Source of the DNA: an uncultured Chlamydiae bacterium
GTDB taxonomy: Bacteria; Chlamydiota; Chlamydiia; Chlamydiales; JAJFMB01
Assembly: GCA_963696295.1 (NCBI GenBank)
Contig: CAVOJR010000001.1
Location: 576,001-640,000 of the forward strand
Direction of reading: 5' to 3'
DNA: 64,000 nt
In this document: in pieces, positions 48,938 to 51,984 of the stretch
Numbering within the stretch: position 1 is the stretch's first letter
Layout of the letters: every line of letters starts with the position of its first letter
The notes under the pieces: model-generated
Database searches by the model: none
Told to the model about the DNA's origin: nothing
The model's input: only the letters and a program-made list of their open reading frames with translations
Position numbers and translations under genes: made by a program

Positions 48938-48995
48938 CTTGACAAAGTCATATTAGCGTGAAAGCCCCGGGAGCTTTAAAAACTTTGTCAAGTTA
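48935..48995. terminator. Palindrome/bidirectional terminator between convergent sctQ and cyclase genes
   Basis: Perfect 14-bp inverted repeat TAACTTGACAAAGT (48935-48948) / ACTTTGTCAAGTTA (48982-48995); inner AAAGC...GCTTT hairpin. Confidence 0.65.
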
Positions 48996-50228
48996 AGTCA
49001 AATAAAGATCGTAGGGCTTTTCGATACCGCCTATATCATAAATGCTCACCGGCAGTACAATTCCTTTCATTTTCACGCGCAGATGCCCATTAACCCGGAC
49101 AGAGTCCTTGACGCATTGATAGGTAGACTCGGAAAGCAGCACCTGCCCCCCAAAGGTAAAATCCTGGATGCGGGAAGCCAGGTTCACCGGGGCCCCGATG
49201 GCGCTATAATTCATCCTCTTTGAAGATCCTATATTTCCAACCACAGCGTTACCTGTATTGATCCCGATCCCCATGGAAAGCTGGGGCAGGCCGTTTTTGA
49301 GATTTTCTGCATTAACTTCTTTCATGGCCAGCTGCATCTCTATAGCGCAGGCAACGGCTCGCAAGGGATCGTCCTCATTCGTGCATGGGGCGCCAAAAAG
49401 GACGAGCAAAGCATCGCCAATAATGGCATCTATCGTGCCCTTGTATTTTAAAATAATATCGATCATCCTGCTATAATAAGCATTCAGCATGGCGACGACG
49501 CTCTCGGCAGGCAAGGTCTCGGAAAGGGGCGTAAAACCTCTTAAATCGCTAAATAAGGCGGTAATGTGGCGAATCTCTCCCCCCAGTTTTAGAGGTTCGT
49601 CGGCCAGCAGCAGATTTTCCACGACTTCATCAGACATATAGCTGCTGAAGACTTTGCGTATGAACTCATTGCGCACTTCAAGAGTCTGCTTGGCCTGAGT
49701 CAGTTCCCGGTTGAGATCTTTCATTTGCTGTTCCAGTTTGACCACGTCGACCAAATTTAATTGATCCTGGGCCAGGGCGGCCAGGTCTTCGAATATTTTC
49801 AGCTGCTCCGGCGTCATGTCTCTCGGAATCTTATCGACCACGCATAGAGTGCCGACTTTGTATCCCTCAAGCGTCTTGAGGGGATGCCCGGCATAAAACC
49901 GCGTATGAGGATTATCCACAACCAGGGGGCTATCGGCGAAGCGGGGATCAAGCAAAGCGTCGGGGATGACCATAGGTTCATCCTGCTGAATGGTATGCGT
50001 ACAAAAGGAGATGCTGCGCTCCGTCTCCGTCGCCTCTACATTTATCCTGGATTTAAACCATTGGCGGTTCACATCTATAAAGGCAATATAAGCAGAAGGA
50101 ACACTGAGCAGAAGGGCGGCAAGGCGGGTAATGCGGTCAAACCGCTCTTCGGGGGAGGTATCTAATATGTTCAGCTCATATAAAGCTGCGAGGCGCAATA
50201 CTTCTTCATTTTGCTCTTGATCAGACAT
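48993..50228 (-). CDS. GAF - coiled coil - class III nucleotidyl (adenylate/guanylate-type) cyclase
   Basis: GAF: RLAALYELNILDT.PEERFDRIT...RQWFKS...SFCTH...RFYAGHPL...GTLCVVD. Cyclase: FSDLRGFT, IGDA, GIGINTG..VVGNIGS, VNLASR. Confidence 0.93.
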   Translation of the reverse strand: MSDQEQNEEVLRLAALYELNILDTSPEERFDRITRLAALLLSVPSAYIAFIDVNRQWFKSRINVEATETERSISFCTHTIQQDEPMVIPDALLDPRFADSPLVVDNPHTRFYAGHPLKTLEGYKVGTLCVVDKIPRDMTPEQLKIFEDLAALAQDQLNLVDVVKLEQQMKDLNRELTQAKQTLEVRNEFIRKVFSSYMSDEVVENLLLADEPLKLGGEIRHITALFSDLRGFTPLSETLPAESVVAMLNAYYSRMIDIILKYKGTIDAIIGDALLVLFGAPCTNEDDPLRAVACAIEMQLAMKEVNAENLKNGLPQLSMGIGINTGNAVVGNIGSSKRMNYSAIGAPVNLASRIQDFTFGGQVLLSESTYQCVKDSVRVNGHLRVKMKGIVLPVSIYDIGGIEKPYDLYLT

Positions 50229-51984
50229 TAATACCCCCTATTTTATTCTGCCAGTCAGCCAAAGACTCTTTTGCCGCGGCATAACCTCTTTCAAACAGCT
50301 CATCCCTGCGGCTCAAATCCAATAAGGCAAAACCCTCAAGGTCGGGCTTGATGTATATATCGCAAAGCTTGACGTTTTCTTTATTTTTAAAGCTCGAAGC
50401 CACCAGCATTCCCCGTAAGAAAATATCGGTAATCGAAGGCATTTCCAGCTTATGAAATACTTTTGCCAAAATGATTTTCGGCCAGGTCAATTCCAGGGGA
50501 TAGTTATAGGAGGATTCTCCGGGGCTGAGATTCCCGATATCGATGGCCACAATTCTGCCCTGCCCTTCAAAATAATCCTTTAGCAGATCGGCGGGCAAAT
50601 TATTCATCACCCCGCCGTCAACCAGCACCATTCCCCCATGATGAACCGGCGGATAAACTCCGGGAATGGAAATACTGGCGCGCACGGCTTTCCATAAAAG
50701 ACCCGCATCCAAATGCACCTCGCTGGAACTGGTCAAATCGGCAGCCACACAGCAAAAATAACGGGGCAAGTCTTCTATCGGGCGATCCCCCAAAAGCGAT
50801 TTAAGAACGGTGGTAATGCTTCTGGAGCTTAAAAGGGATAAGAGAGGGATGGTGTATTCTTTAAAATTTGTCTTCCGCACCACCTCTTCTTGCAAAGCCT
50901 GATAATCCTGATAATCGCGGGAAATCGACAAAAGCGCAGCATTAATGGCCCCGGAGCTCGTCCCAGCGAAAGCATCGATGGGAATCTTCTCTTCAAAAAG
51001 ATACTTAATAGCTCCCGCCTGGGCCAGTCCGCGGCTGCCCCCGCCGCTCAAGACGAGGCCGACCGCTGTGCCGTTGATATGGCGCAGGAAACGGGCGATG
51101 TCTGAGGGCTCCGCAAGTCCCACATGGAAATGCTTAAAGAAACTTAAAGTTCCAAGCCAGGTTTTTGCAAAGTGCGATTGGACTAAGCCCGGATAAATCA
51201 AAACCAGCATTTTCCTGATTTCAGGGTGGACTGCGCGGGGGTCATTCAGCAGACGCACCAGCTCTTCATCAAAATCGGCAGGGGTGTCGCCCGGGGCTAT
51301 GACCATGATGCGATCAGCCATATCCAGGCAAATATCGCACCACAACTTATCGCGGTAATCCACCTCGTAAAAGAGGTAATCGTACCGGCTTTCCATTTCC
51401 TGCAGCTTTCCGGTCAATTGATCCGGACCAATTGAGGCGTCGAAATCAGATCGTCTGATAATTTTGTAACGAAAACGGGAATCAAAGGCTTGCTGCAGCT
51501 TATCAAAGAATTCTCTCGCGTCAACCTCATCATTGGCCCGCAGGCAGACGAGGTTCATGTGATGCATGACGTTCCTGTCTTTCAATGTCTGCTGCAGGCG
51601 CAGGGTGATAATTTTGCACACTTCAAATAATACGTCCGGGTGCTCCTTCCATACCCGCTGAAAATGCTCCTGATCGAGTTTCAATAGTAACGAATCGCGC
51701 ATAGCCAGTACGGTCGCCGTGCGCGGCGTTTGGCTGATCAGGCCCATCTCTCCGACGGTTTGGCCGGGTCCCACCTGTCCCACGGTTTTCCCGCTGCTGA
51801 TTTTCACCAGCAAGCGCCCCCTCAATAAGACATAGAGGGAATCGGAAGAGTCTCCCTGCCGGACTAAAATCTCTCCCGCCTGAATTTCCACCGGCTTCAT
51901 GGAGGCATAGACCGCCTGCAACTCCTCCCAGTTTAAGGTCCGGAATAGCTCACAGGCTTTTAACTGTTCTAGAAAATCGACCAT
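50221..51984 (-). CDS. Cyclic-nucleotide-binding patatin-like phospholipase (NTE-like architecture)
   Basis: cNMP domain (AGEILVRQGD..DSLYVLLRG..VGEMGLISQTPRTATV); patatin motifs LSGGGSRG, GTSSG and VDGG all intact. Stop codon overlaps the cyclase start by 8 nt. Confidence 0.93.
   Translation of the reverse strand: MVDFLEQLKACELFRTLNWEELQAVYASMKPVEIQAGEILVRQGDSSDSLYVLLRGRLLVKISSGKTVGQVGPGQTVGEMGLISQTPRTATVLAMRDSLLLKLDQEHFQRVWKEHPDVLFEVCKIITLRLQQTLKDRNVMHHMNLVCLRANDEVDAREFFDKLQQAFDSRFRYKIIRRSDFDASIGPDQLTGKLQEMESRYDYLFYEVDYRDKLWCDICLDMADRIMVIAPGDTPADFDEELVRLLNDPRAVHPEIRKMLVLIYPGLVQSHFAKTWLGTLSFFKHFHVGLAEPSDIARFLRHINGTAVGLVLSGGGSRGLAQAGAIKYLFEEKIPIDAFAGTSSGAINAALLSISRDYQDYQALQEEVVRKTNFKEYTIPLLSLLSSRSITTVLKSLLGDRPIEDLPRYFCCVAADLTSSSEVHLDAGLLWKAVRASISIPGVYPPVHHGGMVLVDGGVMNNLPADLLKDYFEGQGRIVAIDIGNLSPGESSYNYPLELTWPKIILAKVFHKLEMPSITDIFLRGMLVASSFKNKENVKLCDIYIKPDLEGFALLDLSRRDELFERGYAAAKESLADWQNKIGGINV

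What the first reader, a model, noticed from the sequence alone, without database searches (positions are those of the whole stretch)
48993..51984. Coupled cyclic-nucleotide circuit: cNMP-binding patatin phospholipase plus GAF-cyclase, inserted in the T3SS cluster
Seen: two co-oriented genes overlap by 8 nt. One has a cNMP-binding domain fused to a patatin with intact GGGxR, GxSxG and DGG motifs. The other is a GAF-coiled coil-class III cyclase with both metal-binding Asp residues and the Asn/Arg pair intact. Established: Pycsar pairs a class III cyclase with a cNMP-sensing effector, CBASS uses nucleotide-activated patatins (CapV), and NTE-type cNMP-patatins exist in bacteria. Inference: this is a self-contained sensor -> second messenger -> membrane-lipase module, either an abortive-infection defence system or a stress/membrane-remodelling switch. 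I do not know this pairing as a characterised system.
Basis: partly seen in the sequence, partly recalled or inferred. Interest (0 to 1): 0.88.

Follow-up and report, generated by a model that had tools for sequence, protein, structure and literature searches.

The report
Cyclase-linked NTE-type lipase operon
An environmental chlamydia carries, wedged into its secretion-system gene cluster, a two-gene unit in which a sensor enzyme probably makes a cyclic-nucleotide signal that controls a membrane lipase; it looks like cell signalling rather than virus defence, and it is a compact model for how such lipases are regulated.

Summary
50221-51984(-) encodes a cNMP-binding/NTE-P-loop/patatin protein, a bacterial neuropathy-target-esterase (NTE) type. 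It overlaps by 8 nt a GAF-coiled-coil-class III cyclase (48993-50228). With a divergent cation/H+ antiporter, they fill a 5.1-kb gap between cdsQ and pkn5, which are adjacent in 5 of 5 relatives.

This exact pair was not found elsewhere. The three loci with close patatin relatives lack a cyclase, and none of the patatin's best 120 hits is named Legionella, where named relatives of the cyclase concentrate. The theme does recur: distant NTE patatins abut cyclases of other architectures in 5 of 82 clusters, including a chlamydial kinase-patatin-cyclase-hydrolase run. This scan noted similar operons on other DNA before.

Pycsar and CBASS membership fail: the cyclase is closest to the guanylyl cyclase Cya2, the lipase is not CapV, and there is no defence or mobile context. 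The cyclase has Ala at the Lys/Glu base-selecting site, so its product is unknown.

Best reading: an independently assembled purine-cNMP signalling operon that tunes the cell's own lipids (0.55). Chance adjacency 0.25; defence 0.1. No biochemical step is shown.

The parts
50221..51984 (-). NTE-family lipase, 587 aa: cNMP-binding domain (about 51640-51891), NTE P-loop-like domain (about 51109-51519), patatin domain (about 50581-51057; Ser343 codon 50956-50958); no transmembrane segment
   Evidence: Pfam; motifs; alignment; model pLDDT 82, best fold match PlpD; hydropathy
48993..50228 (-). Class III nucleotide cyclase, 411 aa: GAF (about 49770-50153), coiled coil, Cya2-like catalytic domain (about 49062-49571); D228/D272/N349/R353 intact, Ala268 at the base-selecting site; soluble
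   Evidence: Pfam; PDB 2W01 best natural match, 217 bits, 53-54% identity, rmsd 1.0-1.3; columns
50221..50228 (-). 8-nt overlap of the patatin stop with the cyclase start; a G-rich run lies 5-6 nt upstream of the cyclase ATG (translational coupling inferred)
   Evidence: sequence
52031..53323 (+). CPA2-type cation/H+ antiporter, 430 aa, divergent, start 46 bp from the patatin start; part of the insert, link to the pair not shown
   Evidence: Pfam Na_H_Exchanger; best representative 47% identical; no homologue beside other patatins
48935..48995 (.). 61-bp hairpin with perfect 14-bp arms, apparently an internally deleted copy of a ~170-bp palindromic repeat of this genome; its ends are the stop codons of cdsQ and the cyclase; possible two-way terminator
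   Evidence: the arm occurs 6 times exactly and 11 times with up to 1 mismatch
53496..54032 (.). right end of the insert: short dispersed repeats (53496-53550, 53876-54032) around a doubtful 97-aa ORF (53602-53895, -) with no family match
47699..48937 (+). cdsQ (T3SS C-ring), left flank
   Evidence: Pfam FliMN_C; relatives
54075..55559 (+). pkn5-like Ser/Thr kinase, right flank (gene name recalled from chlamydial T3SS gene order)
   Evidence: Pfam Pkinase; follows cdsQ directly in 5 of 5 relatives

Best explanation
A lineage-specific signalling operon. Shown by sequence: a soluble GAF-cyclase and a soluble NTE-type lipase with intact catalytic and nucleotide-binding motifs, coupled by overlap and inserted between cdsQ and pkn5. 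Inferred: (1) a small ligand at the GAF domain shifts the coiled coil and switches the cyclase dimer; (2) the product is a purine 3',5'-cNMP (cGMP or both purines as likely as cAMP, since Ala268 is neither Lys nor Glu); (3) it binds the N-terminal cNMP domain and changes the activity or membrane association of the patatin, which deacylates the cell's own (lyso)phospholipids. The partnership is functional but loose: NTE patatins have been placed beside different cyclases several times independently, and this is one such assembly. The position in the T3SS cluster is an insertion site, not a sign of secretion.
For: Motifs are intact. Other patatin-cyclase neighbours exist, each with a different cyclase architecture. 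In G287 a kinase-AAA-GAF-HATPase gene, the NTE patatin, a receiver-cyclase with canonical Lys/Thr and Asn/Arg, and an MBL-fold hydrolase run in one direction; that cyclase is the only PF00211 match in its genome. G650 has a patatin followed after ~10 bp by a dCache cyclase. Seven metagenome loci of one cluster have a patatin followed directly by a cyclase, STAND-type in the two scanned; L052 and L036 add TPR- and FHA-cyclases. Cyclases abut the patatin in 11 of 176 loci (5 of 82 clusters at 60% identity) and lie within 9 kb in 20 of 176 (9 of 82). In 14 other Chlamydiota genomes with such a patatin, 2 have a cyclase within 1.1 kb; binomial P is 0.001-0.008 for an assumed background of 0.4-1%. 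Cyclase-linked patatins are scattered over the quick tree. In Drosophila SWS, mutating all three cNMP sites abolished function (PMC12710771, abstract and passages).
Against: No second copy of this exact pair was found. Three loci with close patatin relatives have no cyclase (L096; L097, with only 90 bp upstream; G882, 20 kb read, whose single cyclase is on another contig; L097 and G882 are near-identical, so two lineages). 0 of 20 close patatin hits share a longest-contig length with 119 cyclase hits (indirect). 156 of 176 loci show no cyclase at all, although many have short flanks. Some supporting cases are degenerate: the G165 cyclase lacks Asn/Arg and lies behind a transposase, the G650 cyclase has His for Arg, and the L052 patatin lacks the cassette Arg. 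The per-megabase enrichment is inflated because first neighbours always lie close; by gene slots I estimate only about fourfold, on about four weighted cases each. A paper's discussion states that cAMP binding does not affect PNPLA6/7 activity (PMC10073714, passage). No activity, product, ligand or transcript is shown.
Confidence: 0.55

Rival explanations
1. Chance assembly. Two genes of separate origin were shuffled together in a repeat-rich genome; the lipase reads the general cAMP pool made by the two other cyclases (or nothing), and the GAF-cyclase serves other receptors.
For: The two genes have different nearest relatives and were never found together elsewhere. Close sister patatins differ in having a cyclase neighbour (G650 yes, G437 no). 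Repeats sit at both ends of the insert. The genome has 3 cyclases and 2 other cNMP-domain proteins.
Against: The genes overlap by 8 nt in the order seen in G287, G650 and the L103 cluster. With 3 cyclases in a 3.4-Mb genome, landing next to the only NTE patatin is unlikely by chance. The family-level recurrence also argues against it.
Confidence: 0.25
2. Pycsar-like abortive-infection defence: infection activates the cyclase, and the cNMP turns on a lethal lipase.
For: The two-gene cyclase + cNMP-receptor layout. Domain-level PADLOC matches to PycC (best 78 bits) and to the PycTIR cNMP domain (75 bits). Patchy distribution. The purine-selecting Lys/Glu is absent.
Against: The cyclase is far closer to Cya2 (217 bits) and CyaB (137). 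The pair is not conserved as a unit. PADLOC matches among 39 other window proteins are confined to a small HsdR-N-like ORF ~42 kb away and housekeeping helicase, ATPase, kinase and GTPase genes. No integrase or transposase lies in the insert, and codon usage and GC are typical of the genome. Other paired cyclases carry receiver, Cache or FHA sensors, and in G287 a hydrolase follows, which fits reversible signalling. The CBASS lipase model scores 21.7 against a cut-off of 200.
Confidence: 0.1
3. Host-directed effectors: the two proteins are exported by the neighbouring T3SS and act on the eukaryotic host.
For: Location inside the cdsD-cdsC cluster. A second chlamydial NTE patatin lies beside a T3SS operon in G165. 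Secreted bacterial patatins exist (recalled).
Against: The genes lie on the opposite strand to the cluster. Both proteins are folded from their first few residues, with no disordered N-terminal leader. No such insert exists in 5 of 5 relatives. Class III GAF cyclases and NTE patatins are widespread in unrelated bacteria.
Confidence: 0.05

Closest known systems
NTE family: PNPLA6/PNPLA7, Drosophila SWS, fungal NTE1, bacterial 'NTE family protein' (M. tuberculosis Rv2565 recalled as a member)
   Same: Same three Pfam domains in the same order; 25-29% identity over about 90% of the protein to most animal and fungal NTE hits; Ser-Asp patatin motifs.
   Different: One cNMP domain instead of three, no transmembrane anchor, about 590 aa, and encoded in an operon with a cyclase. 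Whether cNMPs gate NTE lipases is unsettled.
Synechocystis Cya2 (PDB 2W01) and class III cyclases such as CyaB
   Same: 53-54% identity and rmsd 1.0-1.3 over the catalytic domain; metal Asp pair and Asn/Arg intact.
   Different: Soluble GAF sensor instead of membrane CHASE2. Ala at the position where Glu488 or Lys switches GTP/ATP use (PMC5995499, passages); Ser at the second site where Cya2 has Gly (PMC4215837, passages).
Pycsar (PycC + PycTM/PycTIR)
   Same: Class III cyclase beside a protein with a cNMP-binding domain.
   Different: The effector is a lipase, the cyclase is purine-type by kinship and carries a GAF sensor, the pair is not conserved, and there is no defence context.
CBASS with CapV/CapE patatins; CBASS-DAC (PMC13069673, passages)
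   Same: A nucleotide signal and a patatin-fold lipase; CapV and CapE appear among fold matches.
   Different: No CD-NTase or diadenylate cyclase; a separate cNMP domain and P-loop domain; CBASS_lipase score far below the cut-off.

Membership tests
NTE-family patatin | cNMP-binding + NTE P-loop-like + patatin domains in this order | tested here: met
   Pfam, all above cut-off
NTE-family patatin | Gly-rich oxyanion motif, GxSxG serine, DGG/DGA aspartate | tested here: met
NTE-family patatin | (lyso)phospholipase activity | not testable with these tools
   needs an assay
Class III nucleotide cyclase | fold, two metal Asp, Asn/Arg pair | tested here: met
Canonical adenylate cyclase | Lys plus Asp/Thr base-selecting pair | tested here: not met
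   Ala268 and Ser342; the first site is Ser 12, Ala 10, Glu 2, Asn 1 and Lys 0 of 25
Cya2-type guanylate cyclase | Glu at the first site, Gly at the second | tested here: not met
   alignment to 2W01; definition from PMC4215837 passages
Pycsar | receptor is PycTM or PycTIR | tested here: not met
   only the cNMP domain matches PycTIR models; definition from PMC11224242 passages
Pycsar | cyclase of a PycC clade | tested here: not met
   PycC models at most 78 bits, catalytic domain only, against 217 bits to Cya2; no PycC sequence was placed in a tree
Pycsar | makes cCMP or cUMP; protects against phage | not testable with these tools
   needs assays
Pycsar/CBASS | conserved cassette in defence or mobile context | tested here: not met
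   pair not found again; neighbours are T3SS genes
CBASS | CD-NTase plus CapV-type lipase | tested here: not met
   no such match in the four insert ORFs; CBASS_lipase 21.7 against cut-off 200
T3SS effector | disordered N-terminal secretion leader; secretion | tested here: inconclusive
   models are ordered from about residue 4; secretion itself was not testable

The most novel reading that the evidence does not exclude
The Ala/Ser-site GAF-cyclase lineage makes a non-cAMP messenger (cGMP or a cyclic pyrimidine) that only the co-encoded NTE lipase reads. This would be an insulated signalling channel, or a Pycsar-like defence with a lipase effector, in an intracellular bacterium, and a direct demonstration that a cNMP gates an NTE-family lipase.
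Probability: 0.12. Interest if true: 0.8.

Novelty: new variant of a known kind. Interest (0 to 1): 0.4.

Why it matters
Whether cyclic nucleotides directly control NTE-family lipases is unsettled: one paper states that cAMP binding does not change PNPLA6/7 activity, and a 2025 preprint finds the fly sites required. A soluble, single-cNMP-domain bacterial version encoded with its own soluble cyclase is a simple system in which to test this. The cyclase also belongs to a clade, common in Legionella, with neither Lys nor Glu at the base-selecting site in most members, so its product is worth measuring. As a defence-system candidate it is weak, and the family-level theme has been noted before in this scan.

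Tried and rejected
1. Fusion of an NTE patatin with a cyclase: none among 52 longer hits (weak evidence).
2. The same pair in plasmids: no full-length close match to either protein.
3. Viral contigs: 49 distant cyclase loci, and no patatin match printed beside them or beside 29 chlamydial cyclase loci.
4. Full-length GAF-cyclase in other genomes: not found in 399 other Chlamydiota (88 have cyclase-domain matches only; one genome not scored) or in 351 Gammaproteobacteria (5 domain-only matches). An attempt to reach Legionella genomes through an IcmS marker ended in a two-genome order, so the neighbourhood of the cyclase's closest relatives stayed unread.
5. Genomic context of the unnamed metagenome patatins P0002-P0021 could not be read directly; cluster look-up could not be made.
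6. Short-flank loci (30 gamma, 20 alpha) are insensitive: they missed the G650 cyclase, found only after I re-fetched 13 gamma loci of my choosing. Two of the 30 gamma loci (G448, G550) are from unpublished genomes; only that negative tally rests on them. The one alpha positive is the same locus as L052. L093 and L237 are the same locus.
7. Sequencing runs: no RNA holder listed. Four low-share DNA runs from two studies hold short near-identical pieces of insert and T3SS genes, one spanning the patatin-antiporter junction, none spanning the whole region.
8. ESM Atlas for the GAF domain returned generic GAF clusters, with no ligand clue.
9. The careful tree did not finish; only quick trees were used and no clade test was run. 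The identity column is relative to another row and was not used.
10. No complex prediction was run, since no protein-protein binding is claimed.
11. Literature: ten searches listed no paper on a bacterial cyclase-NTE patatin pair. PMC12419801 and PMC10865251 passages added nothing on it. One comparative-genomics paper recalled as relevant (PMC4678834) is not held, and most subscription papers and all supplements were unseen.
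Full report
1. Observation. The two ORFs are real and as described: a 587-aa protein at 50221-51984 and a 411-aa protein at 48993-50228, both on the minus strand, overlapping by 8 nt. Pfam gives cNMP_binding, NTE_Ploop and Patatin for the first, and GAF and Guanylate_cyc for the second. The patatin motifs, the cNMP cassette (G78, E79, R88) and the cyclase residues D228, D272, N349 and R353 are intact and conserved in the aligned relatives. 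Neither protein has a transmembrane segment. The models are confident at domain level (mean pLDDT 82 and 87) and match PlpD/CapV-type patatins plus cNMP domains, and Cya2.

2. Setting. The window is from a 3.43-Mb, two-contig genome that I read as an environmental chlamydia from its T3SS gene set (gene names recalled). In 5 of 5 relatives examined, cdsQ is followed within about 90 bp by the kinase gene. Here 5,137 bp intervene, holding the pair, a divergent CPA2 antiporter starting 46 bp from the patatin start, and short repeats. The left end is a 61-bp hairpin from a dispersed ~170-bp palindromic element, whose ends coincide with the cdsQ and cyclase stop codons. Codon usage and GC of the inserted genes are typical of the genome (percentiles 0.35-0.88). 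The insert holds no integrase or transposase. PADLOC matches among the 39 other window proteins are a small HsdR-N-like ORF about 42 kb away and housekeeping helicase, ATPase, kinase and GTPase genes. This looks like an old, assimilated insertion, not a mobile defence island (inference).

3. The two genes separately. The patatin has 19 relatives at 45-55% identity, nearly all unnamed metagenome proteins, then a sharp drop. None of 399 other Chlamydiota genomes scored has a member of this group; 14 have more distant, full-length or nearly full-length NTE patatins, which fall elsewhere in a quick tree. The cyclase has relatives at 48-74% identity; most of the named ones are from Legionella, whereas no Legionella name appears among the patatin's best 120 hits. 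Its best natural structural match is Cya2 (217 bits). In Cya2, Glu488 or Lys switches GTP/ATP use (PMC5995499, passages). Here that site is Ala, and it is Ser or Ala in 22 of 25 aligned relatives and Lys in none. The product therefore cannot be read from sequence; a purine is the best guess by kinship.

4. Is the pair conserved? Not as far as I could see. L096, L097 and G882 carry close patatin relatives without a cyclase; L097 and G882 are near-identical, L097 has only 90 bp upstream, and G882's only cyclase is on another contig. None of 20 close patatin hits shares a longest-contig length with any of 119 cyclase hits, 17 of those contigs being long enough for both. This test is indirect. The full-length GAF-cyclase was not found in 399 Chlamydiota or 351 Gammaproteobacteria. 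I could not read the neighbourhoods of the closest cyclases.

5. Is the theme conserved? Loosely, yes. Among 176 patatin-anchored loci, a class III cyclase is adjacent in 11 (5 of 82 clusters at 60% identity) and within 9 kb in 20 (9 of 82); many loci have short flanks. The partners differ in architecture: receiver (G287), STAND (L103 cluster, 7 loci), TPR (L052), FHA (L036), and dCache in G650, found among 13 hand-picked gamma loci. G287 is the clearest: kinase-AAA-GAF-HATPase, patatin, canonical adenylate cyclase and MBL-fold hydrolase in one run, with the cyclase the only one found in that genome. For Chlamydiota, 2 of 14 other genomes have a cyclase within 1.1 kb (P 0.001-0.008 under an assumed 0.4-1% background). 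Against this, the G165 and G650 cyclases and the L052 cNMP site have lost a canonical residue, close sister patatins differ in pairing, and by gene slots the enrichment is only about fourfold on few cases (my estimate). Two earlier notes of this scan describe similar operons in Chloroflexota and reach the same reading; a third found a non-conserved pair. I did not check those loci and do not count them as support.

6. Mechanism. Most likely (0.55): ligand at the GAF domain, signal through the coiled coil to the cyclase dimer, a purine cNMP, binding at the patatin's N-terminal domain, and altered turnover of the cell's own lipids. Only the anatomy and coupling are shown; every biochemical step is inferred. 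The genome's two other cyclases have the canonical Lys/Thr and two other proteins carry cNMP domains, so the unit need not be self-contained. Chance assembly (0.25), Pycsar-like defence (0.10) and T3SS export (0.05) are set out under rivals. The antiporter was not found beside other patatins; its link is unexplained.

7. Known systems. The lipase is an NTE-family member by domain content. It is not a Pycsar effector (PycTM or PycTIR; PMC11224242, passages) nor a CBASS lipase. On NTE regulation the papers disagree: PMC10073714 states that cAMP binding does not affect activity (passage); PMC9025805 reviews cAMP-dependent rises in level and activity in cells (passages); PMC12710771 finds the fly cNMP sites required (abstract and passages). 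Ten searches listed no paper on a bacterial cyclase-NTE pair; the library lacks most subscription papers.

8. Verdict. Real, correctly described, and probably a signalling operon. It is a new variant of known parts and one instance of a recurring loose association, not a conserved new system. Interest 0.40, mainly as a test bed for cNMP control of NTE lipases and for a cyclase clade of unknown product.

Noticed in passing
window 48935-48995; genome C1:879130-879300, 113073-113246: A ~170-bp palindromic MITE-like family; the shortened copy here has the stop codons of two convergent genes as its termini. No matching transposase was sought.
   Followed up: partly
window 53496-53550 and 53876-54032: Further short dispersed repeat families, one a ~45-bp hairpin with dozens of partial copies genome-wide.
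   Followed up: partly
L230:3434-13018 (G287): Four-gene run kinase-AAA-GAF-HATPase, NTE patatin, receiver-adenylate cyclase, MBL-fold hydrolase; a more complete circuit than the window's and arguably the better test case.
   Followed up: partly
L231:710-8875 (G249): NTE patatin followed by a cNMP-domain/Rce1-like protease gene, with an Apyc1-like MBL hydrolase about 5 kb away.
   Followed up: no
window 9980-14346: Two tandem glycosyltransferase family 41 (O-GlcNAc transferase-like) genes.
   Followed up: no
window 26938-39164: A run of large ORFs without Pfam matches, several Ser/Thr-rich, with a TPR chaperone-like gene (36242-36784) just upstream of the T3SS cluster; possible translocators or secreted proteins.
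   Followed up: no
window 55694-58867: The secretin gene is 1057 aa, with a long charged insertion between the N domains and the secretin domain.
   Followed up: no
genome C1:1785361-1786680 and C1:1649339-1650931: Two other cNMP-domain fusions, by inspection a metal-transporter-like membrane protein and an NADH-dehydrogenase-like protein (labels recalled, not scanned).
   Followed up: no
L197-L225: 88 of 399 other Chlamydiota genomes encode class III cyclases (many ~490 aa, some in tandem), concentrated in two families.
   Followed up: no
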